A DNA stretch of 64,000 bases from Vicinamibacterales bacterium (GTDB lineage Bacteria; Acidobacteriota; Vicinamibacteria; Vicinamibacterales; UBA8438): contig OZ241898.1 in the NCBI GenBank assembly GCA_965203525.1, positions 640,176 through 704,175 on the forward strand, written 5' to 3'. The number at the start of each line of letters is the position of its first letter. Within the stretch, counting starts at the first letter, position 1. The position numbers were made by a program, and so were the translations under genes. Under the pieces are notes generated by a model. The model was given only the letters and a program-made list of their open reading frames with translations, was not told the origin of the DNA and did no database searches. Below, piece by piece: positions 23,221-46,548 of the stretch.

Positions 23221-24573
23221 TCAGCCCGTCCAGCGCAGCCGGACCACATCTTCGCGCAGGTGCCGTCGGCTGGCCGTCGCGATCCGCGTCCTGAACAAGT
23301 CGATGGCCGTCAGTTCGTAGCCAAGGGACCGGGCCAGATCGCCCAGGATCCGCCCGGTCCGGATCATGACCCGCAGGTACGACGCCTGGTCTCCGACGAC
23401 GTACGCAAGTCTCGCGCCGGGCCGCAGTCTGCTCCGGAGGCCGGCCAGATGGCGCACCATGCCGCCGAAGTACAGTTTCGTGACTCGCGCGTACTGGCGT
23501 TCGAAACCCGACGTCCTGCCCTGTTCGATCCGACGCTTTTCGATGAGGCGCGCGATGCGCTGAATGCCCTCGTGTTCGGCGACCAGGGCGTCGTCGGCGT
23601 CCGTCTTGTACACGCCTCGCGTATTGGATCGGACGAGTTCCTGTTTCAGGCCTCGCAGCTCCCGCTTGTCCCGGACGAAGCCGAGCAGCACGCTTTCGAG
23701 CCGCGTCGTCCGCGTGTAGTCCTTTTCGTTGGGATACGGCGGGGAGGTAATGACCGCGTCGATGGACGACGGCTCCAGGATCTCCTCCAACCTGCGCGCG
23801 TCGGCAAGGTGGACGGCGGCTTCGGTCCCGGCCTGTTTCCGCAGATTCGCGAGGTCGTTGCCCATCGTTCTGACGCGGTTCAACCACGGGCCGACGACCG
23901 GCGCGTCTTCCCGAATTCGCCCGACACCGACCTCCGGGCCGAAATGCAGGTTGCCGATTCCTGAAACCAGCGCCGCGGCGAGCGCGAGTCGCTCGTGAGC
24001 GTACACCGTGTCGTCGCGGTGCCGCTCCAGGGCGTCGAGCAGGAGCAGCGTCTTGTGGAGCGGCAGCGGGCTGATCGAGTTCTTCAGCAGAAGGCTCAAA
24101 CGGTCGGGTGGCAACGTCCGCAACTCCGCGGTTGGAGACTCGTCCGCCTGGAACAGAGGCGCCGGTCCGCGGTCGCCGAGTCCCTGATCCTGGAGCCGAT
24201 CGAGCGCGAGGCCGGCGATCCGCCTGGCGTGGGAAACAAGCGCGTCGGAATCGACGTTCCAGTTCAGCTTGGTGCGGCTCGCGAAGCCGGCCACCGGATT
24301 GCGCTCGATTCCGACGCTCGGAATGCCGAGCTTCTTGCACTCGACCAGCGTCGTTCCCGTACCGCAGAACGGATCCAGCACCCTCTGCGTCGAATCGACG
24401 CGGAACTCTTCGAGGTAGTCGCGCACCAGATGCGACGGGAATGACAGAACGAAGCGGTACCAGTCGTGAACGGCCCGATCTTCGGGCCTGAGCCGGTTCC
24501 GTTCCGGAGTGCTTCCGGCGCCGGCCGTCGTATTGCCCTGGATGAATTCCAGGTACTTGCGCTGCGCTTCCAT
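23221..24573 (-). CDS. Site-specific DNA methyltransferase (N6-adenine or N4-cytosine), alpha-type motif order, with no adjacent endonuclease
   Basis: 450 aa. Motif I VLDPFCGTGTTLVE lies near aa 66. Motif IV AVITSPPYPNEKDY lies near aa 262, with about 190 aa between them. The region is lower in GC (about 62% on a sampled line). Confidence 0.85.
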   Translation of the reverse strand: MEAQRKYLEFIQGNTTAGAGSTPERNRLRPEDRAVHDWYRFVLSFPSHLVRDYLEEFRVDSTQRVLDPFCGTGTTLVECKKLGIPSVGIERNPVAGFASRTKLNWNVDSDALVSHARRIAGLALDRLQDQGLGDRGPAPLFQADESPTAELRTLPPDRLSLLLKNSISPLPLHKTLLLLDALERHRDDTVYAHERLALAAALVSGIGNLHFGPEVGVGRIREDAPVVGPWLNRVRTMGNDLANLRKQAGTEAAVHLADARRLEEILEPSSIDAVITSPPYPNEKDYTRTTRLESVLLGFVRDKRELRGLKQELVRSNTRGVYKTDADDALVAEHEGIQRIARLIEKRRIEQGRTSGFERQYARVTKLYFGGMVRHLAGLRSRLRPGARLAYVVGDQASYLRVMIRTGRILGDLARSLGYELTAIDLFRTRIATASRRHLREDVVRLRWTG

Positions 24574-27330: not shown

Positions 27331-28845
27331 ATGACGGAGCGAAGACGCCGGGGGGTGACGATGCGATCCGCGGGATGCGTGTGCGGGCTGGTCCTGGCGC
27401 TGTCTGCCGGCAGCCCGCCGGCCGCCGCGAACGACGGTTCCCTGGTCGAGGCGGCCAGGGTGCGCGACGCCGAGGCGGTCGACGCGCTGCTGGAAGCGTC
27501 CGCCGACGTGAACGCGGCCGCCCCCGACGGGGCGACGGCGCTGCACTGGGCGGCGTACCACGATGCGCTGCCGCTGGCCGGGCGGCTGCTCGCCGCCGGG
27601 GCGGACGTCGACGCCGCCAACGACTACGGGGTGACGCCGCTGTCGCTCGCCTGCGACAACGGGTCCGCGGCGCTGGTGGCGCGGTTGCTGGAGGCCGGGG
27701 CCGACCCGGACGCCGCCCGCTCAACGGGGGAGACGCCGCTGATGACGTGCGCGCGGACCGGCAGCGTCGCGGCGGTGCGCGCGCTGCTCGCCGCCGGCGC
27801 GAACCCGTCCGCCGCCGAGGCGTGGCAGGGGCAGACGGCGCTGATGTGGGCGGCGGCCGAGGGGCACGCGCCGATCGCGCGGGCGCTCGTCGAGAGCGGC
27901 GCCGACGTCCGCGCCCGCACCGCGGGCGGATTCACGGCGCTGCTGATCGCGGCGCGCGAGGACGAGCCGGAGCTGGTCCGCCTGCTGCTCGAGGCGGGCG
28001 CCGACGTGAACGCCGCGGCGCCGGACGGCGCCACCCCGCTGCTTGTCGCCACGGTCCGCGGACACACCCGGCTGGCGGTGTTCCTGCTGGCGCAGGGCGC
28101 CGACCCGAACGCCGGCGAGGCCGGCTACACGCCGCTGCACTGGGCGGCCGGCTCGTGGCATACCGAGCTGACCGGCAGCCTGCGGGGCATCGAAACGACG
28201 CGCGACGAGGAATGGCGCGCGCTCAACGGGCTGCCGGACGGCAAGCTGGCGCTGGTCGAGGCGCTGCTCGCGCACGGCGCCGACCCCGACGCGCGGCTCG
28301 CCGAGAATCCGCCGCAGTTCGGCTTCGCGAGTCTTCGTTTTCGGGTGAGCCTGATCGGCGCGACGCCGTTCCTGCTGGCCGCCATGGACGCCGACGTCGA
28401 GGTGCTGGAAGCCCTCGCCGCGGCCGGCGCCGACACCCGGCTGGCGACCGACGAGGGCACCACGCCGCTGATGGTGGCGTCCGGCCTGGGGCGCGTGCCG
28501 GCCGAGACGCGGGTGACCGAGGCGGAGACGCTCGACGCGATGCGGTTCATCCTGGATCTGGGCGCCGAGGTCGACGCCGTCAACGCCGCCGGCCGGTCGG
28601 CGCTGCACGGGGCGGCGCACGTCCGCTCGGACGCGGCGGTACAGCTTCTCGTCGACCACGGCGCGGCGGTGCGCGTCGCCGATCAGCGCGGCATCACGCC
28701 GTTGATGATCGCGGAAGGGGGCGGGCACATCCTGCTGCCGGGGCTCGGGGGCGGGAGCACCGCCGAACTGCTGCGGGCGCTCGGCGCCGCCGAGACGACG
28801 CCGTCGAGCTTCATCGACGCTTTCAACCAGGGGCCGATCCGCTGA
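27331..28845 (+). CDS. Secreted ankyrin-repeat protein
   Basis: Signal peptide CVCGLVLALSAGSPPAAA, then about 10 ANK repeats (GATALHWAAYHD..AGRLLAAGADVDAAN, GVTPLSLACDNG...). An alternative start lies at 27361. It occupies the same frame as the read-through 1245-aa track ORF. Confidence 0.85.
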   Translation: MTERRRRGVTMRSAGCVCGLVLALSAGSPPAAANDGSLVEAARVRDAEAVDALLEASADVNAAAPDGATALHWAAYHDALPLAGRLLAAGADVDAANDYGVTPLSLACDNGSAALVARLLEAGADPDAARSTGETPLMTCARTGSVAAVRALLAAGANPSAAEAWQGQTALMWAAAEGHAPIARALVESGADVRARTAGGFTALLIAAREDEPELVRLLLEAGADVNAAAPDGATPLLVATVRGHTRLAVFLLAQGADPNAGEAGYTPLHWAAGSWHTELTGSLRGIETTRDEEWRALNGLPDGKLALVEALLAHGADPDARLAENPPQFGFASLRFRVSLIGATPFLLAAMDADVEVLEALAAAGADTRLATDEGTTPLMVASGLGRVPAETRVTEAETLDAMRFILDLGAEVDAVNAAGRSALHGAAHVRSDAAVQLLVDHGAAVRVADQRGITPLMIAEGGGHILLPGLGGGSTAELLRALGAAETTPSSFIDAFNQGPIR

Positions 28846-28922
28846 CGATCCGCACGGATCCGGCGGCGGCAGGGATTGCGGGGCGCCGCCGGTGGACGGC
28901 GCGACCACGCCGGGGGGCGACG

Positions 28923-31316
28923 ATGACGAGCCGTGTGAGGCGGACCGGGCCGGCGGCGGTGTTCGGGGCGGGGCTTGCGTTTGCCTTGTGCGCTACGGCG
29001 GCGCAGGCGTCCGGTGCGCCGCCGGCGGCGCCCGGCGTCTCGACGTGGCGGGCGGTGTTGGACCGCTACTGCGTCACCTGCCACAACGAGCGTCTGCTGA
29101 CGGGGAACCTCGCCCTCGACGGTGTCGACGTCGAGCGCGTCGGCGCGGACGCGGAGGTGTGGGAGAAGGTCCTCCGGAAGCTGCGCACGCAGGCGATGCC
29201 GCCGCCGCGCCGGCCGCGGCCGGACGCGGAGACCTACGGCGCGTTCGCGGCGTGGCTGGAGACGGCCCTCGACCGGGCCGCGGCGGACGATCCGAATCCC
29301 GGGCGGCCGGCCATCCACCGTCTCAACCGGCTGGAGTACGCCAACGCCGTCCGCGATCTGCTCCACCTGGAGATCGACGGCCGGGCGCTGCTGCCGGCCG
29401 ACGATCTGGCCTACGGCTTCGACAACAACGCCGACGTCCTGACCGTGGCGCCGGGGCTGCTGGAGCGCTACATGTCGGCGGCGCGCCGGATCAGCCGGCT
29501 GGCGGTGGGCGACCCGGCCATCGAGGCCGACGCGGTGCGCTACCCGCTGTCCTCGCTGCTGGCGCAGGACGACCGCATGAGCGAGGACCTGCCGTTCGGC
29601 TCGCGCGGCGGGGCCGCGGTCCGGCACCATTTCCCGCTCGACGGCGAATACCTCGTCCGCATCGGGCTGCAGGGCAACCGGCGGGAGCCGCAGGAGATCG
29701 ACGTCCGCGTCGACGGGGTGCGCCGCGCGCTGCTGCGGGTCGGCCACTGGCCGGAGGGCGCGGACCCCGGCGTAGCGCCGCAACCCGGCGAGTTGTTGCG
29801 GGTCCGCTTGCCGGTCCGCGCCGGCACCCGCGTGGTGAGCGTGTCGTTCACGAAGCGGACGGCGGTGACCGAGGGGCTGGCCCCGCGCCGCCTGCCGCTC
29901 TGGACCTTCTCCACCGGGCGCGGCTTCGTGCGGCGGATGGCGCTCGAAAGCGTGGAGATCGAGGGCCCCTTCAGTCCCGACACGCTCGGCCGCGGGCCCG
30001 ATGGCGAAGGGGAGGCGGCCAGCCGGCGGCGCATCTTCGTCTGCCGTCCGGCGCTGCCGGCGGACGAGGAGCCGTGCGCCGACGAGATCCTCGGGACGCT
30101 GGCGCGGCGCGCGTTCCGCCGGCCGGTGACGGCGCCCGACCTGGAGGTGCTGCGCGGCTTCTACGCCGAGGGGCGCGGCGAAGGGGGCTTCGAGGCGGGC
30201 ATCCAGCGGGCGCTGGAGAGCATCCTGGTCGACCCGGAGTTCCTGTTCCGCATCGAACGCGATCCGCCCGGCGCCGCCCCGGCGGCCCCCTACCGCCTCA
30301 GCGGCGTCGAGCTGGCGTCGCGCCTGTCGTTCTTCCTCTGGAGCAGCATCCCCGACGACGAGCTCCTCGCCGCGGCGGAGGCCGGCCGGCTGAGCGACCC
30401 GGCGGCGCTGGAGCGGCAGGTGCGGCGGATGCTCGCCGACGAACGGGCGGGCGTGCTGGTGTCGAGCTTCGCCGCGCAGTGGCTGCACCTGCGCCGCATG
30501 CGCACGGTGACCCCCGACGTCAACGCCTTCCCCGGGTTCGACGAGAACCTGCGCGCGGCCCTGGTCCGCGAGACGGAGCTGTTCCTGGAAAGCCAGATCC
30601 GGGAGGACCGGAGCGTGGCCGGCCTGCTCGACGCGGACTACACGTTCGTCAACGAGCGGCTCGCCCGGCACTACGGGATCCCGAACGTCTACGGCTCCCG
30701 CTTCCGGCGCGTGGCCCTGCCCGGCGCGGAGCGCCGCGGCCTGCTCGGCCACGGCAGCATCCTGACCGTGACGTCGCTGGCTACCCGGACGTCGCCGGTG
30801 GTCCGCGGCAAGTGGGTGCTCGAGAACGTCCTCGGCACGCCGCCTCCGCCTCCGCCGCCCGACGTGCCGGACCTGCCGGAGCGGGCCGGCGGCGGGCCGG
30901 CGGCGTCGTTGCGCGCGCGGCTCGAAGCGCACCGCGCCAACCCGGTCTGCTCCAACTGCCACGCGCGCATGGACCCGCTCGGCTTCGCCCTCGAGAACTT
31001 CGACGCGGTCGGCAGGTGGCGCGACGCCGACGCGTCGGGCGCGCCGATCGACCCCTCCGGCGTGCTGCCCGACGGGACGGCGTTCGCGGGCTTCCCCGGC
31101 CTGCGGAACGTCCTGCTGGAGCGGCGCGCGGAGTTCGTCGCCACGGTGACGGAGAAGCTGCTGACCTACGCCCTCGGGCGCGGGTTGGCGCACTACGACC
31201 GGCCGGTCGTCCGCGCCGTCGTGCGCGGGGCGGCGGCGGACGACCACCGCTGGTCGTCGCTGATCCTCGGCGTCGTCCGGAGCCTTCCGTTTCAGATGAG
31301 GAGAGCGGAATCATGA
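28923..31316 (+). CDS. DUF1592/DUF1587/DUF1588/DUF1585-family protein with an N-terminal cytochrome-c-like CxxCH
   Basis: Signal peptide, RYCVTCHNERL, IHRLNRLEYANAVRDLL, FLWSSIPDDELL, FVNERLARHYGI and CSNCHARMDPLGFALENFD. These blocks are characteristic of the Planctomycete/Acidobacteria DUF1592 family. Confidence 0.85.
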   Translation: MTSRVRRTGPAAVFGAGLAFALCATAAQASGAPPAAPGVSTWRAVLDRYCVTCHNERLLTGNLALDGVDVERVGADAEVWEKVLRKLRTQAMPPPRRPRPDAETYGAFAAWLETALDRAAADDPNPGRPAIHRLNRLEYANAVRDLLHLEIDGRALLPADDLAYGFDNNADVLTVAPGLLERYMSAARRISRLAVGDPAIEADAVRYPLSSLLAQDDRMSEDLPFGSRGGAAVRHHFPLDGEYLVRIGLQGNRREPQEIDVRVDGVRRALLRVGHWPEGADPGVAPQPGELLRVRLPVRAGTRVVSVSFTKRTAVTEGLAPRRLPLWTFSTGRGFVRRMALESVEIEGPFSPDTLGRGPDGEGEAASRRRIFVCRPALPADEEPCADEILGTLARRAFRRPVTAPDLEVLRGFYAEGRGEGGFEAGIQRALESILVDPEFLFRIERDPPGAAPAAPYRLSGVELASRLSFFLWSSIPDDELLAAAEAGRLSDPAALERQVRRMLADERAGVLVSSFAAQWLHLRRMRTVTPDVNAFPGFDENLRAALVRETELFLESQIREDRSVAGLLDADYTFVNERLARHYGIPNVYGSRFRRVALPGAERRGLLGHGSILTVTSLATRTSPVVRGKWVLENVLGTPPPPPPPDVPDLPERAGGGPAASLRARLEAHRANPVCSNCHARMDPLGFALENFDAVGRWRDADASGAPIDPSGVLPDGTAFAGFPGLRNVLLERRAEFVATVTEKLLTYALGRGLAHYDRPVVRAVVRGAAADDHRWSSLILGVVRSLPFQMRRAES

Positions 31317-32671
31317 TCATCACGAAGAAGACGCTGCCCCGCCGCACCGTGCTGCGCGGACTGGGGACCGCGGTGGCGCTGCCGCTGCTCGACGGGATGG
31401 TGCCGGCGCTCACCGCGCTCGGCCGGACGGCGGCCCGGCCGAAGCCGCGCCTCGGGTTCGTCTACGTGCCGCACGGGGCCGTGATGCGGAACTGGACCCC
31501 GCCCACCGACGGCGCCGGCTTCGAGTTCACGCCGATCCTGAAACCGCTGGAGCCGTTCCGCGACCGCCTCGTCGTGCTGTCCGGCCTCGATCACGCCCCG
31601 GCGGCGCAGATGCCGGGGGATCCGGCGGGGGGCCACGGGCGGATCACCGGCGCGTTCCTGACCGGCGTGCACGCCAAGCCGACCGAGGGCGCCGACTTCG
31701 AGGCGGGCCGTTCGGTCGACCAGATCGCGGCGGCGCAGCTCGGCCGGCGGACGCAGCTCGCCTCGCTGGAGGTGGGCATCGGCCTGCCGGAGTTCGGCGG
31801 CGCCTGCGACGCCGGCTTCAGTTGCGCCTACGTCAGCACCCTCTCCTGGAGCACGCCGACCACCCCGCTGCCGATGGAGAGCAATCCGCGCGCGCTCTTC
31901 GAACGGCTGTTCGGCGACGGGACGAGCACCGACCCGGCGGCGCGGCGCGCGCGGCGGCGCAAGGACCGCAGCATCCTCGACGCGGTGACCCGCAAGGTGG
32001 CGCGCCTGCAGGAGGGGCTGGGGGCGGCGGACCGCGCCAAGCTGACCGACTACCTGGCCGCGGTGCGCGACGTCGAGCGCCGCATCCAGCGGGCGGAAGC
32101 GGAGGCGGACCGCGAGCTGCCGGTGGTGGAACGGCCGTCGGCGAGCATCCCGGCTTCGTTCGACGAGTACGTGAAGGTGATGTTCGACCTGCAGGTGCTC
32201 GCCTACCAGGCCGACCTGACCCGCGTCGTCACGTTCCTGATGACCCCGGAGCTGACCGCGCAGACCTACCCGCAGATCGGCGTGCCGGATCCGCACCACG
32301 CGCTCTCGCACCACGAGAACCGGCCGGAGAGCCTGGAGAAGCTGACCAAGGTGGGCGCCTACCACGCGTCGCTCTTCGCCGGGTACCTCGACCGGCTGCG
32401 GGCGACCCCCGATGGCGACGGCACCCTGCTGGACCAGGTGGCGATCCTGTACGGCAGCGGGATGAGCAACAGCAACCTGCACAACATCCAGAAGCTGCCG
32501 ATCCTGGTCGCCGGCGGCGCCGCGGGCCGGCTCCGGGGGAACCGCCACCTGCGGTACGCCGACGGTACGCCGCTGACCAACCTGTACCTGACGCTGCTCG
32601 GCATGGTGGACGTACCCGAGGAGCGCTTCGGCGACAGCACCGGGACGCTGCGGTACCTGACGGACGTGTGA
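31313..32671 (+). CDS. DUF1552 domain protein (Tat-signal, sulfatase/phosphatase-like fold family)
   Basis: The ATG at 31313 overlaps the upstream stop (ATGA). LPRRTVLRGLGTAVALPLL is a Tat-type signal. It is the canonical partner of DUF1592 proteins. Confidence 0.88.
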   Translation: MIITKKTLPRRTVLRGLGTAVALPLLDGMVPALTALGRTAARPKPRLGFVYVPHGAVMRNWTPPTDGAGFEFTPILKPLEPFRDRLVVLSGLDHAPAAQMPGDPAGGHGRITGAFLTGVHAKPTEGADFEAGRSVDQIAAAQLGRRTQLASLEVGIGLPEFGGACDAGFSCAYVSTLSWSTPTTPLPMESNPRALFERLFGDGTSTDPAARRARRRKDRSILDAVTRKVARLQEGLGAADRAKLTDYLAAVRDVERRIQRAEAEADRELPVVERPSASIPASFDEYVKVMFDLQVLAYQADLTRVVTFLMTPELTAQTYPQIGVPDPHHALSHHENRPESLEKLTKVGAYHASLFAGYLDRLRATPDGDGTLLDQVAILYGSGMSNSNLHNIQKLPILVAGGAAGRLRGNRHLRYADGTPLTNLYLTLLGMVDVPEERFGDSTGTLRYLTDV

Positions 32672-32706
32672 GCCGGACCGGGGGAGGTCGGAACCAGGGA
32701 GCGAAG

Positions 32707-34521
32707 ATGACTTCATGCAACGGTGTGCGTGCGCGGTTGTCGGCGGCGGCCGTGGCGTTGGCGGCGGTCGCGGCAGGCGTGGTCCCGACGGCCGCCGCGC
32801 AGGGGCGGACCACCCGGCAGGGCGAGCCGCCGAACGTCACGGCGGGCGGGACCGACTGGACGAGCCACAACCTCGACCTCGCCAACAGCCGCTACTCGGA
32901 GCTGGACGAGATACGCGTCGAGACGGTCGGACGACTGGCCGAGCGGTGGTCCTACCGGGTGGCGGCGGGGATCGACGTCAGCCAGGTGACGCCGCTGGTG
33001 GTCGACGGCGTGATGTACTTCCACGCCGGCGCCGCCGTGGTCGCCGTCAACGCGGTCACCGGCGAGGAGGTCTGGACCCTCGAGCTGGACGAGGCGCGCC
33101 GCAACCGCGTCCGCGGGCCGACCTGGGCGGAAGGGAAGATCTACTCCTACAACGGTCCGAACCTGGTCGCGGCCGACGCGAAGACCGGCGAGCTGGTCGC
33201 GTCGTACGGCGACGGCGGCGTCCTGCCGGTGGTCGGGCTGGCGCTGCAGGCCAAGTATCCCGACACCTATCCGCCGACCCTCGACCCGCACACCCTCGGC
33301 TACCGGATCACCGCCGCGCCGGCCTACCACGACGGCACGCTCTACGTCGGCGCCGCGCTCTCCGAAGGGCACATTCCGGGCGGTCTGGTGATCGCCACCG
33401 ACGCCGAAACCGGGGCCGTCGAGTGGGTGTTCAACACCATCCCGCAACGCCCGCGGGACGACGGCTGGGAGATCGCGCGCGACACGTGGGGCGACGGCCA
33501 GCGCGCCGGCGGCGGCGTCTGGACGCAGCCGGCCATCGACCTCGACCTCGGCCTGATCTACTTCAACACCGGCAACCCGTCGCCGGACTACGACGGATCG
33601 GCGCGGCCGGGGGCCAACCTGTTCACCAACGCCACCGTCGCCCTCGACCTGGAGACCGGCGCGCTGCGCTGGTACTACCAGGCGATCCACCACGACCTGT
33701 GGGACTGGGACCACGTCACCGGCCCGGTGCTCTTCGACGTCGCGGGCGCCGACGGCGAAACGATCCGGGGCGTCGGCGCGGCCGGCAAGAACTGCCTGCT
33801 CTACCTCTGGAACCGGGAGACCGGCGAGCCGATCAACCCGATGGTGGAGACGCCGGTGCCGACCGCGACCAACGTGCCGGGCGAGGTGGTCTATCCGACC
33901 CAGCCGATCCCCTACAACGCCCGCGGCGTGCCGATGACGCCGTTCTGCGCGACGTACGTGCACCTCGACGACCCGGAGCTGCAGGCGCGGAGCCGGCCGA
34001 TGTACACGCCGTACTCCGTCGAGGAGCACCTGATCGTCGCCCACGGCGGATCGAGCTTCGGCTCGCCCGCGTTCAGCCCGCGCACCGGGCTGCTCTACGT
34101 CACCGGCAAGAACGCCGCGGTCTCGATGATCGTCCGGCCGCTCGGCGACAGCCTGGAGCCGGGGCCGCACGGCGACGGCCACAGCGCCAACTTCGAGGAG
34201 CTGAGCCGCATCCCCGCCTACACGCCGACCACCACCCTGACCGCCTACGAGCCGGCCAGCGGGGAAGAGGCGTGGCAGCAGGTGTTCCCCGCGCTCGGTC
34301 CCATCGGCGCGAGCGGCAATCTGGCGACGGCGGGCGACCTCGTGTTCCAGGGCGCGGACGACGGCGCGTTCTACGCGTTCCACGCCGCGACCGGCGAGCG
34401 GCTGTTCCGCCACCAGGCGCCGCGCCCCATCCGGTCGAGCCCGATGACCTACCGGGTGAACGGCAGGCAGTACGTCACGGTGATCGCGACCGACACGATC
34501 CTGACCTTCGCGCTGCCGTAG
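32707..34521 (+). CDS. PQQ-dependent dehydrogenase (quinoprotein beta-propeller)
   Basis: Signal peptide, WTSHNLDLANSRYS, TPLVVDGVMYF, GGGVWTQPAIDLDLGLIYFNTGNPSPD, HHDLWDWD, and C-terminal SSPMTYRVNGRQYV. Confidence 0.88.
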   Translation: MTSCNGVRARLSAAAVALAAVAAGVVPTAAAQGRTTRQGEPPNVTAGGTDWTSHNLDLANSRYSELDEIRVETVGRLAERWSYRVAAGIDVSQVTPLVVDGVMYFHAGAAVVAVNAVTGEEVWTLELDEARRNRVRGPTWAEGKIYSYNGPNLVAADAKTGELVASYGDGGVLPVVGLALQAKYPDTYPPTLDPHTLGYRITAAPAYHDGTLYVGAALSEGHIPGGLVIATDAETGAVEWVFNTIPQRPRDDGWEIARDTWGDGQRAGGGVWTQPAIDLDLGLIYFNTGNPSPDYDGSARPGANLFTNATVALDLETGALRWYYQAIHHDLWDWDHVTGPVLFDVAGADGETIRGVGAAGKNCLLYLWNRETGEPINPMVETPVPTATNVPGEVVYPTQPIPYNARGVPMTPFCATYVHLDDPELQARSRPMYTPYSVEEHLIVAHGGSSFGSPAFSPRTGLLYVTGKNAAVSMIVRPLGDSLEPGPHGDGHSANFEELSRIPAYTPTTTLTAYEPASGEEAWQQVFPALGPIGASGNLATAGDLVFQGADDGAFYAFHAATGERLFRHQAPRPIRSSPMTYRVNGRQYVTVIATDTILTFALP

Positions 34522-42024: not shown

Positions 42025-42409
42025 ACCGAGCGCGGATCACGGAGAGAACCGGTCGCTTGCGCCGGCCCGCCGGCCGGTCGGCGGCGGCCGGGTGATGAAG
42101 TGATGAATTTGAATCTCCTCAAATGCGTGTGGGCAGGGGCGGCGCCAGTTGGATGCCTCCGCGGCACAGGAACAGCATCGAGATGAGCGCATCGGGGGAG
42201 TGGAGTTGCCCCGGTTTCGTGGACGCCTATAGAACGTGCTCGAAGACATGAATGGAAGAAGCGCCGGGGTGACCAGGCCCGGCGGTGCGCTTCGTCCGGT
42301 GCGCCCGCTACGAGGCTCACCGGTTCGCGGCGGCCTGCCACCCGGCTGCGCGGTGGAACCGTAAAATTTCGCAACCGGCGCGCGACGACGCCGGCGCGTT
42401 GCGGGGCGC

Positions 42410-42742
42410 TCAGCCGGCCGGCGGCGCGGCGGGCAGGATGGCCCGTTCGAGCGTGGCCAAGCGTTGCGTGACCTTTCCGAGCTCGATCTCGACGGCGCGC
42501 ACGCGGGCGTCAAGCTCGCGGATCTCGGCCCGGAGCTCGGTTCGGAGCTCGCTCATCTCGCGCCTAAGCTCGCTCATCTCGCGCCTAAGCTCCATCCGGT
42601 TGTTGTCCACGGCGACTTCCAGCCGCCCGATGCGAACGCCGAGCTCGTCCAGTCTGGCGTTGGTTGCGCCGTGCTGCGTCCAGAGCAACGCGGCGAGGGC
42701 GAGCAACGCGCCGATCAGCCATTGCGTGTTTCGATCCGGCAC
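42410..42742 (-). CDS. Small membrane-anchored coiled-coil protein
   Basis: GTG at 42742. TM segment WLIGALLALAALLW, then about 75 aa of heptad coiled coil containing an exact ELRREMS duplication. The upstream part of the 219-aa track ORF is Arg/Pro/Gly-rich and would abut the divergent methylase start. Confidence 0.5.
   Translation of the reverse strand: MPDRNTQWLIGALLALAALLWTQHGATNARLDELGVRIGRLEVAVDNNRMELRREMSELRREMSELRTELRAEIRELDARVRAVEIELGKVTQRLATLERAILPAAPPAG
42557..42603 (+). repeat. Exact 21-bp tandem duplication (one heptad, ELRREMS) inside the coiled-coil gene
   Basis: gctcgctcatctcgcgcctaa occurs at 42557-42577 and 42578-42598, followed by a partial third copy (gctcc). Confidence 0.9.
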
Positions 42743-43071
42743 CTTCGGTATCGTAGCGCATTCGGCGCCGGGGCGCCGCGCCGCCCCGCGAGCGTCGGCG
42801 CGCGTTGCGCGTCCATCACCTCGATGACGACGAAGCGGGTCTTGGCGCCGCGCCGCCCGCCCGTGTCGGCGCGCGCGGGGCGGCGGCTCGGAAGGTTGCC
42901 GTCGGCCGCCTGTTCGATGCGGCGGCTCGCCATCGTCGGCGAGTCCGCCGGCCGGCGGCTCGGAGGGGTCGCCGTCGGTCGCCTTGTTCGATGCCGCTAT
43001 CCTGGAACCGTCAGGCCCGTTGCCGTGCGCGAACGTGAGGAAGCGGTCGTTCAGCGGGCGGAGAGGCATCC

Positions 43072-46000
43072 GTGATTCCCCGGCACTGCAAGCGCCTCGC
43101 CGAGGTGGACTTCCCGATCGCGATCGTGTCGAAGCACGCGGCGCGCGAGAAGTCGATCCGCCACGGGCATCCGTCGACGCTGCACCTGTGGTGGGCGCGC
43201 CGGCCGCTGGCGTCGAGCCGGGCGGTGCTGCTGGCGCTGCTGCTGCCGGACCCGTGCGATCCGGCGTGCCCGCCGGCGTTCACGGCGCGGGCGCGCGAGA
43301 TCCTGACGCCGGTGCGGCAGCGGCCGAAGGACGCCGCCGAGCTGCGGAAGGCGCTGATCTGGTTCATCGGGACGTTCGCCGACTGGAACCTGGCGGCGGA
43401 TCCGACGTATCTGCGGGTGGCGCGCGAGCTGGTGCGGGCCGCGCACCCGGGGGAGGCGCCGCTGGTGGTCGATCCGTTCGCCGGCGGCGGGTCGATTCCG
43501 CTGGAGGCGTTGCGGGTGGGCTGCGAGGCGTTCGCGAGCGATCTGAACCCGGTGGCGTGCCTGATCCTGAAGGTGATGCTGGAAGAGATCCCGCGCCACG
43601 GGCCGGGGCTGGCGGAGGAGTTGCGGCGGGTCGGCGGCGAGGTCAAGGCGGCGGCCGAGAAGGAGCTGGCCGACCTCTATCCGCCGGACCCGGACGGGGC
43701 TACGCCGATCGCGTATCTGTGGGCGCGGACGGTGCGCTGCGAGGCGCCGAACTGCGGGGCGGAGATCCCGCTGCTGCGTTCGTTCTGGCTGTGCCGGAAG
43801 CCGAAGCGCCGGCGGGCGTTGCGGGCGGCGGTGGCGCGGCCGGCGGGAGAGCCGCCGCGCGTGGAGCTGGAAGTGTTCGAGCCGGCGTCCGAGCGGGACG
43901 TACGGGCGGGCACGGTGACGCGGGCGAAGGCGGCGTGCCCGTGCTGTCACGTGGTGCTGCCTCCGGAGCGGGTGCGGGCGCAGCTCGCCGCGCAGCGCGG
44001 CGGGGCGGACGCGGTGTTCGACGAGGCGGGCCGGCGCATCGGCGGCGCGCGGCTGACGGCGGTGGTGACGCTCCGGCCGGGGGAGACGGGCCGGCACTAC
44101 CGGCTGCCTACCGACGCGGACTACGCGGCGGTGCGCGCGGCGCAGGCGCGGCTGGCGGGGATTCTCGACGAGTGGGAGCGGGGCGGGAAACAGGGGCTGT
44201 GTCCGGTGCCGGACGAGCCGACACCCGCGGGCGGCGGGTCGGGCGCCGGTCGCGCGTTCAGCGTGCAGCGCTACGGGATGTTCCAGTGGAGCGATCTGTT
44301 CACGGCGCGGCAGAAGGTGGCGTTGGTGGATCTGCTCGCCGGAATCTACCGCGGAACGTCCGCGAGACAGGAGGCGACGTCGTCAATCTATCGGCAGGTT
44401 GGGCTTTCGCGTGCAACGCTACGGCATGTTCCGGTGGGGCGATCTGTTCACGGCGCGGCAGAAGGTGGCGTTGGTGGATCTGCTCGCCGGAATCTACCGC
44501 GGAACGTCCGCGAGGCAGGAGGCGACGTCGTCAATCTGAACCTCGCCTGCGCATTCAATCGCGTAGCCATGAGTGACATGTCCTGCACGCGATGGAACGC
44601 GGCAGCGGAGAAGATGCAGCACACTTTCGGGCGGCAAGCACTACCGATTGTTTGGGATTTCGCGGAAATCGTGGCAACAGCCGAAGCTCCTGGAAACTGG
44701 AAGAGTGGGTATTCCATCGTAAGTGAGGTCATTGACGCAGCCCGTAGCGTGCACACCGGGCAAGTTCAGCCGGCTGATGCGACGGAACATTCGCTTCCCG
44801 ATCAGGCCGCCGGCGTCTGGTTCACCGACCCGCCCTACTACGACGCGATTCCCTATTCGGACCTCTCCGACTTCTTCCTCGTCTGGCTCAAGCGCGCCCT
44901 GCCCGGCCACCCGCTGCTGCGCGATCCCTTCGACCCGGCCAATCCGCTGTCGCCCAAGACCCGCGAGGCGGTGCAGGACGAGACCAAGACCTGTAATGGG
45001 CGCGTCAAGGACCGCGCGTTCTTCGAGGACACGATGGGCCGCGCCTTCACCGAAGGCCGCCGCGTCCTGCACGAGGACGGCGTCGGTTCGGTCGTCTTCG
45101 CGCACAAGACCACCGAAGGCTGGGAAGCGCTGCTCGCCGGCATGATCCGTGGCGGCTGGACCATCACCGGCTCGTGGCCCATCGCCACCGAGATGGGCAC
45201 GCGCCTGCGCGCCCGCGATTCCGCCGCCCTCGCCACCAGCATCCACCTCGTCTGCCGCCCGCGCCCCGACGACGCCCCGGTCGGCGACTGGGCCGTCGTC
45301 CTGCGCGAGCTGCCCGAGCGCGTCGGCGAATGGATGGAGCGCCTGCAAGATGAGGGCGTCCGGGGCGCAGACCTCGTCTTCGCCTGCATCGGCCCGGCGC
45401 TGGAGATCTTCAGCCGCTACGCGCAGGTGGAGACCGCCGACGGGGGCGAGGTCGGCCTGCCGGCATACCTGGAGCGGGTCTGGGAAGTGGTCGGCCGCAC
45501 CGCGCTGGAGAACGTCCTCGGCGCGGCGGAAGCGCAGGCCCGCAACGGACTCGCCGGGGCGCTCGAAGAGGACGCGCGGCTGACCGCGCTCTTCCTCTGG
45601 ACGCTCCAGGCGACCGGCGCCGGCGCGGACGCGGGAGACGCCGGCGACGGCTCGACACCCGGCGACGACGACGGGGACGACGAGAGTCCGGCCGGCGGCA
45701 AGGCGCAGGGCTTCGCGCTGGTGTTCGACGTGGTGCGCCGCTTCGCGCAGCCGCTCGGCATCGACCTGCCGAAGTGGGAGAAGAAGCGCACCATCGAGAC
45801 GAAGAAGGGGGTGGTCCGTCTGCTGCCGGTGGCCGAGCGGGCGCGGCATCTCTTCGGCGCGCGCGGGGCGCAGGCCGTCGCGGCGCGGCTGGAACGGGAA
45901 GCGGCGGTCGGAACGGATCCGCTGCAGGGGTTGCTGTTCCCGGACCGGCAGGAAACCGCGGCGGCCGCCGCCCGGGAGCGGCGGCCGCGGTACGGCGACG

Positions 46001-46239
46001 GCGACGACCCGGCCGACGAACGTTCCCCGGCGCCCGGCGCCACGACCCTGGACCGGGTCCACACGGGGATGCTGTTCCAGGCCGGCGGGCAGACGAACGC
46101 GCTGCACGCGCTGCTGAAGGCGGAGCGGGAGCGCGGCCCCGACTTCCTGCGCCTGTCGAACGCGCTGTCGGCGCTCTACCCGCGCGGCAGCGAGGAGAAG
46201 CGCCTGCTCGACGCCATGCTGCTGGCCGCGCCGCGGTAG
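43072..46239 (+). CDS. DUF1156/COG1743 adenine-specific DNA methylase with a Zn ribbon, and an internal 148-bp duplication
   Basis: GTG at 43072 follows GGAGAGG. The N-terminus VDFPIAIVSKHAAREKSIRHGHPSTLHLWWARRPLASSRAV is the DUF1156 signature. Motif I is VVDPFAGGGSIPLEA. The Zn ribbon is CEAPNCGAEIP...CPCCHVV. Motif IV is VWFTDPPYYDAIPYSDLSDFF. Confidence 0.85.
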   Translation: MIPRHCKRLAEVDFPIAIVSKHAAREKSIRHGHPSTLHLWWARRPLASSRAVLLALLLPDPCDPACPPAFTARAREILTPVRQRPKDAAELRKALIWFIGTFADWNLAADPTYLRVARELVRAAHPGEAPLVVDPFAGGGSIPLEALRVGCEAFASDLNPVACLILKVMLEEIPRHGPGLAEELRRVGGEVKAAAEKELADLYPPDPDGATPIAYLWARTVRCEAPNCGAEIPLLRSFWLCRKPKRRRALRAAVARPAGEPPRVELEVFEPASERDVRAGTVTRAKAACPCCHVVLPPERVRAQLAAQRGGADAVFDEAGRRIGGARLTAVVTLRPGETGRHYRLPTDADYAAVRAAQARLAGILDEWERGGKQGLCPVPDEPTPAGGGSGAGRAFSVQRYGMFQWSDLFTARQKVALVDLLAGIYRGTSARQEATSSIYRQVGLSRATLRHVPVGRSVHGAAEGGVGGSARRNLPRNVREAGGDVVNLNLACAFNRVAMSDMSCTRWNAAAEKMQHTFGRQALPIVWDFAEIVATAEAPGNWKSGYSIVSEVIDAARSVHTGQVQPADATEHSLPDQAAGVWFTDPPYYDAIPYSDLSDFFLVWLKRALPGHPLLRDPFDPANPLSPKTREAVQDETKTCNGRVKDRAFFEDTMGRAFTEGRRVLHEDGVGSVVFAHKTTEGWEALLAGMIRGGWTITGSWPIATEMGTRLRARDSAALATSIHLVCRPRPDDAPVGDWAVVLRELPERVGEWMERLQDEGVRGADLVFACIGPALEIFSRYAQVETADGGEVGLPAYLERVWEVVGRTALENVLGAAEAQARNGLAGALEEDARLTALFLWTLQATGAGADAGDAGDGSTPGDDDGDDESPAGGKAQGFALVFDVVRRFAQPLGIDLPKWEKKRTIETKKGVVRLLPVAERARHLFGARGAQAVAARLEREAAVGTDPLQGLLFPDRQETAAAAARERRPRYGDGDDPADERSPAPGATTLDRVHTGMLFQAGGQTNALHALLKAERERGPDFLRLSNALSALYPRGSEEKRLLDAMLLAAPR
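44261..44537 (+). repeat. 129-bp near-identical direct repeat separated by 19 bp (period 148 = 3n+1) inside the DUF1156 methylase ORF
   Basis: Copy 1 is 44261-44389 and copy 2 is 44409-44537, with about 5 mismatches. The anchor gatctgttcacggcgcggcagaaggtgg lies at 44293 and 44441. Confidence 0.92.
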
Positions 46240-46548
46240 ATCGGGAAACCGACGTCACGATCCGGCTCGACGCGGCGCTCGAAGCAGGGTCAGATTCTTG
46301 CCGCTCTGGTCGGGCGGTAGCGTTCCCCGCCCGCGGATTTCCGGCGGATGCGGCGCGCCGGTGCCGTTGCCGGGCGTTCGGCGGCCTGCCGGCGCCGCTT
46401 GCCGGTTCGGGGTGCGTACCGTATCCTGAAAGCCGTTGCCTGTCGATCCCGCCGTCCATCGAAACCGCGGTCCTTGCTCCGTCATTCGCCCGGGCGTTCC
46501 GCCGGCGCCTGCCTGCGCCGCGGCGGGGCTCCGTGATCCGTTCCGCGC

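What the first reader, a model, noticed from the sequence alone, without database searches (positions are those of the whole stretch)
43072..46239. Solitary DUF1156/COG1743 Zn-ribbon DNA methylase whose frame is kept open by a 148-bp (3n+1) internal duplication
Seen in sequence: the 1055-aa ORF has the DUF1156 N-terminal signature, SAM motif I, a Cys4 ribbon and a DPPY motif IV.
- Inside it, 129 bp (44261-44389) is repeated at 44409-44537 with about 5 mismatches and a 19-bp spacer. The period is 148.
- Copy 1 is read in the native frame (QRYGMFQWSDLFTARQKVALVDLLAGI...).
- Copy 2 is read one base out of frame (ATLRHVPVGRSVHGAAEGGVGGSARRNL...). It rejoins native-looking sequence only at its end (VVNLNLACAFNRVAMSDMSCTRWN...).
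- Copy 2 read in the copy-1 frame ends in TGA at 44536-44538.
- Deleting one copy leaves 3020 nt, which is not a multiple of 3. A single-copy version of the present sequence would therefore be frameshifted.

Inference: the duplication either rescues a frameshifted allele, at the cost of a junk linker of about 49 aa, or it is a recombination scar. GC drops to about 53-63% for roughly 200 nt right after the duplication (44580-44800), which hints at a mosaic gene. As far as I recall, this methylase family is usually encoded beside DUF499 ATPase and helicase genes in defence islands. None is present here; the neighbours are a carboxylesterase, a small coiled-coil gene and trpS.
Basis: partly seen in the sequence, partly recalled or inferred. 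Interest (0 to 1): 0.65.

Follow-up and report, generated by a model that had tools for sequence, protein, structure and literature searches.

The report
Duplication-repaired orphan DNA methylase gene
A stand-alone copy of a phage-defence-type DNA methylase gene in a probable sponge-symbiont bacterium lost one base, and a real 148-base internal duplication puts its reading frame back together; a tidy example of gene repair, but not a new kind of system.

Summary
ORF 43072-46239 encodes a 1055-aa DUF1156/HmaB-type N6-adenine methylase. It carries a 129-nt direct repeat (44261-44389 / 44409-44537, 5 mismatches, period 148).

The duplication is real. Independent short-read runs contain the junction exactly, and in one run the repeat core has twice the depth of the flanking unique sequence.

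- Another metagenome carries the same cassette as a single copy with one extra A after position 44519, and it reads straight through.
- Both window copies lack that A, so a 1-nt deletion came first and the 3n+1 duplication compensates for it.
- Single-copy, still-frameshifted forms sit at the same locus (next to trpS) in other samples.

Copy 2 with its 19-nt "spacer" is the native sequence of a second allele type (LPP-IGxLGFRVQRYGM). The structure is therefore also an inter-allelic recombination product.

Across the family, a conserved backbone flanks a replaceable, lower-GC cassette. The repeat straddles the cassette's left boundary, in a length-tolerant linker that carries other tandem duplications in relatives.

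The gene is an orphan: 78 of 83 relatives lie beside a DUF499 ATPase, and this one does not. Whether the repaired protein is active is unknown.

The parts
43072..46239 (+). Full-length ORF (1055 aa; GTG start, TAG stop): HmaB-type / Type-1 BREX-related DUF1156 N6-adenine DNA methyltransferase, here without partner genes
   Evidence: PADLOC HmaB, E 5e-113; homologues up to 84-85% identical overall and 93-97% in the flanks.
43111..43257 (+). DUF1156 N-terminal helical domain (aa 14-62)
   Evidence: PF06634, 76 bits against a cut-off of 24.
43465..43509 (+). SAM-binding motif I (VVDPFAGGGSIPLEA, aa 132-146)
   Evidence: Invariant columns D134-G140.
43738..43947 (+). Cys4 zinc-ribbon insert (C223, C228 ... 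C289, C292)
   Evidence: All four cysteines are invariant in 54 homologues.
44261..44389 (+). Repeat copy 1, read in the native frame (..QRYGMFQWSDLFTARQKVALV | DLLAGIYRGTSARQEATSSI). The first ~68 nt are conserved backbone (type-1 flank) and the last ~61 nt are cassette linker. It carries the 1-nt deletion between 44371 and 44372.
44390..44408 (+). 19-nt 'spacer'. In its own frame it encodes IGRLGF, the native left flank of the second allele type. The novel joint lies at 44389|44390.
   Evidence: Reads join 44220 + CTGCCTCCA/CTGCCTCCG/TTACCGCCG + 44390 (that is, PDEP-LPP-IG..) in X3, X5, X6, X12 and X13; 90% match to L072.
44409..44537 (+). Repeat copy 2, translated one base out of its native frame (RATLRHVPVGRSVHGAAEGGVGGSARRNLPRNVREAGGDVV). 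It becomes native again only past the deletion site at 44519/44520.
44519..44520 (+). Site of the ancestral 1-nt deletion (GGAAGG -> GGAGG). The intact allele has an A between these two bases.
   Evidence: X13 shows 'put in behind 44519: A' at depth 34.4 of 34.4; the restored sequence reads through, and its 5 substitutions are all synonymous in that frame.
44537..44539 (+). TGA that would end a single-copy (frameshifted) allele
44329..44541 (+). Linker of 71 codons between the FTARQKVALV helix and the LACAFNRV core. A single-copy version would be 65 nt (3n+2). The typical FTARQ-to-FGRQA distance is 54-59 aa, against 109 aa here.
44329..44796 (+). Replaceable lower-GC cassette (linker plus core), just upstream of motifs III/IV. 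It is the presumed specificity sub-module.
   Evidence: Alternative-cassette joints in reads lie at 44321-44334 or 44473-44477 on the left and 44792-44809 on the right.
44827..44838 (+). Catalytic motif IV (DPPY, aa 586-589)
   Evidence: Read directly from the sequence; D586, P587 and Y589 are invariant (P588 nearly so).
42410..42760 (-). Small TM/coiled-coil gene upstream. It is the only neighbour shared with a canonical Hma island.
   Evidence: 42396-42800 is 86% identical to L001 2338-2747, a 116-aa gene next to the Snf2/NOV_C helicase there. No Pfam hit.

Best explanation
What it is. The ORF is an orphan copy of the methyltransferase of the Hma system, also called the Type-1 DUF499-centred BREX-related system. 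The host is a 73%-GC bacterium, probably a Vicinamibacterales-like member of sponge or marine communities.

Gene architecture in this family. A conserved backbone carries the DUF1156 domain, motif I, the Zn ribbon, motifs IV onward and the C-terminal domains. A cassette of about 100-150 aa lies between the FTARQK helix and motifs III/IV. It comes in discrete types and is exchanged by recombination. A short, sequence-free linker follows the left crossover point.

What happened here.
1. Shown: the cassette in this lineage lost one A in the linker (GGAAGG -> GGAGG). That puts the N-terminal 40% and the C-terminal 60% of the gene in different frames and creates a stop at 44537.
2. Shown: a 148-nt (3n+1) segment is now present twice. 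The segment runs from just upstream of QRYGM to just past the deletion site.
3. Shown: the ribosome reads copy 1 in the N-terminal frame and crosses the novel joint at 44389|44390. It then reads copy 2 out of frame, as about 43 junk residues. Past the deletion site in copy 2 it is in the correct frame for the rest of the protein.
4. Result: a full-length 1055-aa ORF with a 71-residue linker where relatives have roughly 15-25 residues.

Origin (inferred). Copy 2 begins with the flank of a different allele type. The duplication therefore arose by joining two alleles. The alternative is an in-situ duplication followed by replacement of the upstream backbone by homologous recombination.

Function (inferred, not shown). 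The repaired protein is probably foldable, because the linker tolerates insertions of 14-60 aa in relatives that sit in complete systems. Whether an orphan HmaB methylates DNA without its ATPase is unknown.
For: The duplication is real and present at two copies per genome.
- The junction contig 44337-44438 has 0 mismatches in X1 and X2.
- In X1 the repeat-core contig has depth 161.9, which equals junction 82.4 plus unique cassette 78.7.

The deletion came first.
- The X13 single-copy allele has +A after 44519. Its five other differences are all synonymous in the restored frame.
- Both window copies read CAGGAGGC.

Frameshifted single-copy forms exist at the same locus.
- X3, X7 and most of X6 carry the cassette without the junction and without any indel relative to the window.
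- X9 and X10 have a second 1-nt deletion at 44487.
- Contigs linking the gene's 3' end to the intergenic region and trpS have depths matching the cassette: X1 76.9, X2 43.3, X9 12.7.

Two-allele origin.
- Four of the five mismatches lie in the first 31 nt of the repeat, followed by 75 identical bases.
- The spacer encodes the type-2 flank.
- In X5 and X6, copy 1 carries a different linker variant from copy 2: 10 differences in 163 nt, while the downstream cassette is identical.

Mosaic gene and tolerant linker.
- Mosaic structure.
- Linker length survey.
- Independent in-frame tandem duplications lie in the same linker in L002 (99 nt x2), P0014 (14 aa x2) and P0007 (AKI x2). L002 and P0014 sit in complete islands.

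No visible decay.
- Changes unique to the window in the flanks are 37 synonymous and 12 non-synonymous, dN/dS about 0.12. That matches L002 (0.17) and L085 (0.16).
Against: - There is no functional evidence: no methylome and no RNA runs, and the structure model was unusable.
- The gene lacks the ATPase and helicase that accompany 78 and 72 of 83 relatives. In a related BREX-like system the methyltransferase needs its ATPase to act (MANTIS preprint).
- Every strain in which the cassette linker was read at this trpS-adjacent locus carries the 1-nt deletion. Several have not been repaired, and one has decayed further. The copy therefore seems dispensable.
- A random duplication here had roughly a 1-in-3 chance of the right phase and about a 45% chance of an open junk frame at this GC (my estimate). 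Chance repair is therefore not excluded.
- Haplotypes were inferred from short contigs and their depths, not from phased long reads.
- The low dN/dS may reflect recombination with functional alleles rather than selection on this copy.
Confidence: 0.72

Rival explanations
1. Neutral scar in a dying gene. The orphan copy was already a dispensable pseudogene after the 1-nt deletion. The duplication is one more random lesion that happens to have the right phase, and the long ORF has no function.
For: - The gene is an orphan.
- The deletion is present in all trpS-locus strains in which the cassette linker was read, and unrepaired forms are common: X3, X7 and most of X6.
- X9 and X10 carry a second deletion.
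- The chance of a fortuitous open frame is about 0.15 by my estimate.
- The intact +A allele was found only in a sample that lacks this locus context (X13).
Against: - The 3.1-kb ORF has no other lesion.
- Window-specific dN/dS is about 0.12, also in the part downstream of the frameshift (0.19).
- The duplicated allele accounts for essentially all copies in X1 and is present in at least 4 runs, with sequence divergence at the same junction. It has therefore persisted.
Confidence: 0.3
2. Copy-number ON/OFF switch. The 129-nt direct repeats, which include a 75-nt identical run, recombine. Cells would then flip between two copies (frame open, ON) and one copy (stop at 44537, OFF), giving phase variation of an epigenetic methylase.
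For: - Both states occur in the same samples with otherwise identical cassette sequence. In X2 the repeat core has depth 73.2, against junction 27.6 plus cassette 43.6. In X6 the junction has depth 4.8 against cassette 26.3.
- In X2 the locus flank looks like a single strain (depth 43.3, all differences fixed).
- The period 3n+1 toggles the frame.
- There is a precedent in pneumococcal cap3A duplications (PMC11163986).
Against: - In X1 the ratio is about 1.0, with no one-copy subpopulation.
- Part of the X2 'single-copy' fraction belongs to a second allele that diverges after 44671 (depth 43.6 against 32.6).
- Regaining exactly this duplication after loss would be very rare, so the switch would be essentially one-way.
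- No phased reads are available.
Confidence: 0.12
3. Simple in-situ tandem duplication followed by point mutation, with no second allele involved.
For: - Tandem duplications are common in this linker.
- A CAATC pentamer lies at both ends of the unit, in the type-2 context (sequence, reads).
Against: - The differences are not spread evenly. In the 19-nt spacer, 10 of 19 positions differ, then 4 of the next 31, then 1 of the remaining 98.
- The divergent edge encodes the other allele's flank at 6 of 7 residues (IGRLGFR against IGTLGFR).
- The X5/X6 version has two different linker variants in its two copies.
Confidence: 0.15
4. Assembly artefact: two strain haplotypes concatenated, or a collapsed or expanded repeat.
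For: The sample contains very many alleles that share the flanks. Flank depth is 30-80 times cassette depth, which is a setting prone to mis-assembly.
Against: - The exact junction sequence is present in independent runs from different studies.
- The depth arithmetic fits two copies.
- Only the assembled sequence as given yields an open frame.
Confidence: 0.02

Closest known systems
HmaB, the methyltransferase of the Hma system (Payne et al. 2021), also called the Type-1 DUF499-centred BREX-related system (PMC12839542). HmaA has been tested in Halomonas (PMC11232893).
   Same: - DUF1156 N-terminal domain, motif I, an insert after strand 2, DPPY and long C-terminal domains.
- Best PADLOC model is HmaB, E 5e-113.
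- The closest relatives sit between a Snf2/NOV_C helicase and a DUF499 ATPase, often with other defence genes inserted between them, as described in PMC11232893.
   Different: - No helicase or ATPase anywhere in the 64 kb; the neighbours are housekeeping genes.
- The linker carries the frame-repairing duplication.
- The score against NCBIfam NF042963 is far below that model's cut-off.
Classical intragenic frameshift suppression: a -1 lesion compensated by a nearby +1 lesion, with a mistranslated stretch tolerated in between (textbook knowledge, rII-type logic)
   Same: A 1-nt deletion is compensated by an insertion of 3n+1 nt. The mistranslated segment lies in a region where the sequence does not matter.
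   Different: The +1 lesion is a 148-nt duplication that includes the deletion site itself. The repaired protein therefore contains one correctly read and one misread copy of the same DNA.
Tandem-duplication phase variation of the pneumococcal type 3 capsule gene cap3A (Waite et al. 2001, as summarised in PMC11163986)
   Same: A tandem duplication of tens to hundreds of bases inside an ORF sets the frame. Precise loss of one copy reverses the state.
   Different: The polarity is reversed: here the duplication means ON. The copies are 96% identical, not 100%. No switching rate is known, and regain is unlikely.
Exchange of specificity modules in restriction-modification and BREX methyltransferases (for example the PglX target-recognition region, PMC11341690; Type I HsdS domain shuffling, from general knowledge)
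   Same: A conserved catalytic scaffold with a replaceable segment. The segment occurs in discrete types and is shared between distant backbones.
   Different: - It has not been shown that this cassette sets the methylation motif.
- No silent cassettes or invertase lie nearby.
- Exchange appears to occur between genomes rather than within one locus.

Membership tests
HmaB / Type-1 BREX-related DUF1156 methyltransferase | N-terminal DUF1156 helical domain | tested here: met
   PF06634 at aa 14-62, E 2.5e-21, 76 bits against a cut-off of 24.
HmaB / Type-1 BREX-related DUF1156 methyltransferase | N6-adenine methyltransferase core with motif I (FxGxG) and motif IV (DPPY), and a large insert between them | tested here: met
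   DPFAGGG at aa 134-140 and DPPY at aa 586-589, invariant or nearly invariant in 54 homologues. Zn-ribbon cysteines are invariant.
HmaB / Type-1 BREX-related DUF1156 methyltransferase | Full-length match to curated family models | tested here: inconclusive
   PADLOC HmaB E 5e-113 over aa 191-798. NCBIfam equivalog NF042963 scores 179 bits against a cut-off of 1000.
Hma / Type-1 BREX-related defence system (as a system) | Methyltransferase encoded with a DUF499 ATPase and a Snf2-family helicase-nuclease | tested here: not met
   tblastn with both partner proteins finds nothing in the 64-kb window. 78 of 83 related loci have the ATPase and 72 of 83 the helicase.
Hma / Type-1 BREX-related defence system (as a system) | DNA methylation of a specific motif and protection from phage | not testable with these tools
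   No methylome or phenotype data. No RNA runs hold the sequence.
Phase-variable gene switched by tandem duplication (cap3A type) | Duplication inside the ORF that changes the reading frame, with both states present in one population | tested here: inconclusive
   The frame effect is shown. One-copy and two-copy forms co-occur in X2 and X6, but strain phasing is not possible and X1 shows only two-copy.
Phase-variable gene switched by tandem duplication (cap3A type) | Reversible, high-frequency switching | not testable with these tools
   Needs culture or phased long reads.
Diversity-generating retroelement (template and variable repeat pair) | Mismatches confined to adenines of one copy | tested here: not met
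   The mismatches, copy 1 to copy 2, are G>A, G>C, A>G, A>G and A>G, so they are not adenine-specific. The variant states match ordinary allelic states of homologues (FQWS against FRWG).
Programmed ribosomal frameshift | Slippery site at the frame change, with the shift conserved in relatives | tested here: not met
   No X XXY YYZ heptamer lies around 44500-44540. The intact relative simply has one more base.

The most novel reading that the evidence does not exclude
The 148-nt repeat could act as a copy-number switch. Recombination between the two copies would turn the orphan methylase OFF (one copy, stop at 44537), and the two-copy state would be ON. Symbiont populations would then be mixed for an epigenetic mark, a phasevarion driven by a long tandem duplication rather than by a simple-sequence repeat. 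A related unexcluded reading is that the single-copy frameshifted form still works as a split two-polypeptide methylase. That would explain why both halves stay under purifying selection.
Probability: 0.12. Interest if true: 0.7.

Novelty: new variant of a known kind. Interest (0 to 1): 0.42.

Why it matters
- The case documents, in wild populations, the order lesion then repair. A one-base deletion in a defence-type methylase was compensated by a 3n+1 duplication that mistranslates one copy of itself. The intact, broken, further-decayed and repaired alleles can all still be found in public metagenomes.
- It also exposes something more general. In Hma / BREX-related methylases the segment just upstream of motif IV behaves as a swappable, lower-GC cassette, shared between backbones from many phyla. 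A length-tolerant linker sits at the crossover point.
- If that cassette sets the methylation motif, it gives a natural library for testing and re-engineering specificity in this little-studied family.
- The orphan copy raises the question of whether such a methylase can act without its ATPase.

Tried and rejected
- Structure prediction: an AlphaFold2 model of the whole protein from a 54-sequence alignment gave mean pLDDT 52.5 and pTM 0.34. It was too poor to use, so no fold search was run.
- Solved structures: a profile search found no relative even at E = 10.
- Protein database: a search with the junk linker found no other protein containing it. The window's exact protein is not on record.
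- JGI metagenome contigs: exact-pattern scans for the junction and for the linker found nothing.
- Expression: no true RNA runs hold the cassette.
- Promoter and terminator scan: uninformative.
- Split or fragmentary homologues P0122, P0123 and P0127 first looked like recurrent frameshifts at this linker. They come from 3x-coverage long-read contigs, so they are more likely assembly errors and were discounted.
- A systematic assembly indel in both copies was rejected. Adding a base to either copy or to both copies closes the frame (reasoned from the frames).
- A diversity-generating retroelement, programmed frameshifting and silent cassettes in the window were rejected.
- The first depth-based estimate of 37% single-copy in X2 was softened. 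The cassette contig splits after 44671 into depths 43.6 and 32.6, which points to a second allele.


Full report
**1. Observation**

The ORF at 43072-46239 (+) is 1055 codons long and starts with GTG.
- It has the Pfam DUF1156 domain at aa 14-62.
- Motif I (DPFAGGG, aa 134-140), four invariant cysteines (223, 228, 289, 292) and DPPY (aa 586-589) are all present.

- It lies at 44261-44389 and 44409-44537: 129 nt, five mismatches, spacing 148.
- With one gap the similarity extends to 145 nt.
- Copy 1 is in the native frame. Copy 2 is one base out of frame.
- Removing 148 nt leaves 3020 nt, which is 3n+2.
- GC falls to 0.57 over 44550-44774.

**2. The duplication is real**

Logan contigs from public short-read runs labelled sponge or marine metagenome hold this sequence.
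- A 102-nt contig covers the end of copy 1, the spacer and the start of copy 2 (44337-44438). It is present without a mismatch in X1 (depth 82.4) and X2 (depth 27.6).
- In X1 the contig for the part that is identical in both copies (44448-44514) has depth 161.9. That equals the junction (82.4) plus the unique cassette (78.7), so there are two copies in essentially every genome.
- A diverged version of the same junction, with 10 differences in 163 nt, is present in X5 and X6.

**3. What the gene is**

- The best PADLOC model is HmaB, E 5e-113.
- The literature places DUF1156 methylases in the Hma system, together with a Snf2 helicase-nuclease (HmaA) and a DUF499 ATPase (HmaC) (PMC11232893).
- That system was recently re-described as the Type-1 DUF499-centred BREX-related system. 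There the methylase is said to have a target-recognition insert after core strand 2 (PMC12839542).
- Of 83 related loci fetched, 78 have the ATPase and 72 the helicase within 10 kb. The 64-kb window has neither.
- The window's neighbours are a dienelactone hydrolase, a GDSL lipase, a carboxylesterase, trpS, scpA, scpB, cmk and rpsA.
- The only link to a canonical island is the small coiled-coil gene at 42410-42760 (-). It is 86% identical to a gene beside the helicase in L001.
- Homology to the closest relatives stops within about 10 nt of the start and stop codons.

**4. The gene family is a mosaic**

- The closest backbones (P0004, L002, P0001-P0005) are 93-97% identical to the window protein in aa 1-418 and 580-1055. 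They are only 22-48% identical in the cassette core, aa 492-575.
- The closest cassettes (P0007, P0009, L001; 83-85%) sit on backbones that are 81-89% identical.
- At the DNA level, window versus L002 is 94.6% identical over 43061-44334 and 44788-46237, and unalignable in between.
- In the metagenomes the conserved flanks have 30-80 times the depth of this cassette. Many contigs leave the window sequence at 44321-44334 (or at the copy-2 equivalent, 44473-44477) and rejoin it at 44792-44809.
- Cassettes fall into discrete types that recur in different phyla.
- The cassette is lower in GC than the rest of the gene in 78 of 78 loci, by 10.8 points on average. The GC dip is therefore a family property.
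- The repeat straddles the left boundary. Its first ~68 nt are backbone and its last ~61 nt are cassette linker.

**5. The linker tolerates length changes**

- The distance from FTARQ to FGRQA is 54-59 aa in 46 of 50 loci measured and 66 aa in two more. It is 109 aa in the window and 116 aa in L002.
- L002 has its own perfect in-frame tandem duplication of 99 nt in this linker.
- P0014 has a 14-aa unit twice, and P0007 has AKI twice.
- L002 and P0014 lie in complete islands.
- Only the window duplicates part of the conserved flank as well.

**6. The frameshift came first**

- Run X13 carries the same cassette as a single copy (379-nt contig, depth 34.4). It has one extra A after 44519 and five substitutions.
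- Read in the frame of the 5' flank, it gives ...FTARQKVALVDLLAGIYRGTSARQEGDVVNLNLACAFNRVAMSDMSCTRWN... without interruption. All five substitutions are synonymous in that reading.
- The window's two copies both read CAGGAGGC where this allele reads CAGGAAGGC. The lineage therefore lost one A before the segment was doubled.
- A single-copy window-type linker is 65 nt (3n+2). With the duplication it is 213 nt (71 codons).
- Adding a base to either or both copies of the assembled sequence closes the frame. A systematic sequencing indel is therefore not the explanation.

**7. State of the locus in other samples**

Contigs that link the 3' end of the gene to the intergenic region and trpS have depths matching the cassette in four runs.

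| Run | Locus-linking contig depth | Cassette depth |
|---|---|---|
| X1 | 76.9 | 78.7 |
| X2 | 43.3 | 43.6 |
| X9 | 12.7 | 10.9 |
| X7 | 5.5 | 6.3 |

 In X3 the intergenic/trpS contig (depth 9.26, cassette 7) starts only at 46265, so the link to the gene's 3' end is less direct.

- The same orphan locus therefore exists in several strains, which differ by a few percent in the intergenic region.
- All of them carry the 1-nt deletion.
- X1 is all two-copy. X2 is mostly two-copy. X5 is mostly two-copy, with a variant copy 1. X6 is mostly one-copy (junction 4.8 against cassette 26.3). X3 and X7 show no junction.
- X9 and X10 have a further 1-nt deletion at 44487 and remain broken.
- X13, which has the intact allele, lacks this locus context.
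- Part of the X2 one-copy fraction may be a second allele that diverges after 44671.

**8. Origin of the duplication**

- Differences between the copies are concentrated at the 5' edge.
- In its own frame, the 19-nt spacer plus the start of copy 2 encodes IGRLGFRVQRYGMFRWGDLFT. This is the second common flank type, LPP-IG(T/R)LGFRVQRYGM. It is seen in homologues and, joined directly to PDEP at 44220, in reads from five runs.
- Copy 1 has the other flank type (AGGGSGAGRAFSVQRYGMFQWS).
- In X5 and X6 the two copies also carry different linker variants. In the window they are identical for 75 nt, which suggests later homogenisation.
- The structure is therefore a join of two alleles that both carried the deletion. 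The alternative is an in-situ duplication in a type-2 allele followed by replacement of the upstream backbone. I cannot tell these two routes apart.
- The joint (…GTCAATCT|ATCGGCAGG…) has only a short ATC/CAATC similarity.

**9. Is the repaired gene functional?**

Points in favour:
- The ORF has no other lesion.
- Changes unique to the window in the flanks are 37 synonymous and 12 non-synonymous (dN/dS about 0.12). This is no higher than in relatives from complete islands.
- Pairwise dN/dS against L002 is 0.16-0.24.
- The linker accepts long insertions elsewhere.
- The repaired allele has persisted and diverged.

Points against:
- The copy is orphaned.
- Unrepaired and further-decayed forms are common at the same locus.
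- A related BREX-like methylase needs its ATPase.
- Chance alone gives roughly 0.15 for an open repaired frame (my estimate, from a 1-in-3 phase and about 0.45 for 50 stop-free codons at this base composition).
- Recombination with functional alleles could keep dN/dS low.

No methylome, transcript or usable structural evidence could be obtained.

**10. Verdict**

An orphan HmaB-type methylase gene lost one base in a hypervariable linker at the edge of a swappable cassette. A real 148-nt inter-allelic duplication restores the frame, at the cost of about 50 extra residues.
- The gene belongs to a known family, and frame repair by a compensating insertion is a known principle.
- The unusual points are the form of the repair, its population record, and the cassette architecture of this family.
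- Interest is moderate.

Noticed in passing
L002:11280-11477: The closest genome relative (a Vicinamibacterales MAG, in a complete Hma island) has its own perfect in-frame tandem duplication in the same linker: 99 nt x2, 98% identical. It gives 33 aa twice (NSNG(P/S)TESVSTGPPDSASGPAPHCDGRPTT(T/A)LT).
   Followed up: partly
L084 (P0014) and P0007, linker after FTARQK: Further small tandem duplications lie at the same place: SGDSRSVGSMPLNN twice in P0014 and AKI twice in P0007. The linker looks like a hot spot, or the only tolerated spot, for duplications.
   Followed up: partly
window 46248-46320: Some contigs go from 46320 back to 46248. This indicates a 73-nt tandem duplication just downstream of the methylase stop codon. 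It is present in part of the population (X1 depth 49, X5 12, X7 7, X9 4) and absent from the window.
   Followed up: no
window 42396-42800 (-): The small TM/coiled-coil gene upstream of the methylase is 86% identical in DNA to a 116-aa gene beside the Snf2/NOV_C helicase in L001. It may have travelled with the methylase from an Hma island. It has no Pfam family.
   Followed up: partly
window 44200-44900, in runs X1-X13: The conserved parts of the gene have 30-80 times the depth of this cassette in sponge metagenomes. Relatives at 62-69% protein identity occur in MAGs of at least ten phyla. This points to very many alleles per community and extensive horizontal transfer of this methylase.
   Followed up: partly
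window 44487, in runs X9 and X10: A strain with the same orphan locus has a second 1-nt deletion in the linker, on top of the shared one. It is still out of frame, an example of continued decay.
   Followed up: partly
window 44671, in run X2: Part of the X2 population leaves the window sequence right after ..VWDFAEI. This suggests a second crossover point inside the cassette, at the conserved FGRQALPIVWDFAE motif.
   Followed up: no
L007:10001-13027 and L007:22945-23019: Another Vicinamibacterales MAG has a DUF1156 methylase with no helicase or ATPase within 10 kb. It also has a second methylase-like fragment about 10 kb downstream. Orphan copies may not be rare.
   Followed up: no
window 23221-24573 (-): A 450-aa ORF has a partial N6_N4_Mtase hit (E 4e-10) and a weak match to motif I of the DUF1156 protein. 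It may be a second DNA methylase in the window.
   Followed up: no
window 27375-34521: This stretch holds a DUF1592/DUF1588/DUF1585 protein, a DUF1552 protein and a PQQ dehydrogenase. The third-position GC signal here is weaker than in the rest of the window, and long ORFs overlap in several frames.
   Followed up: no
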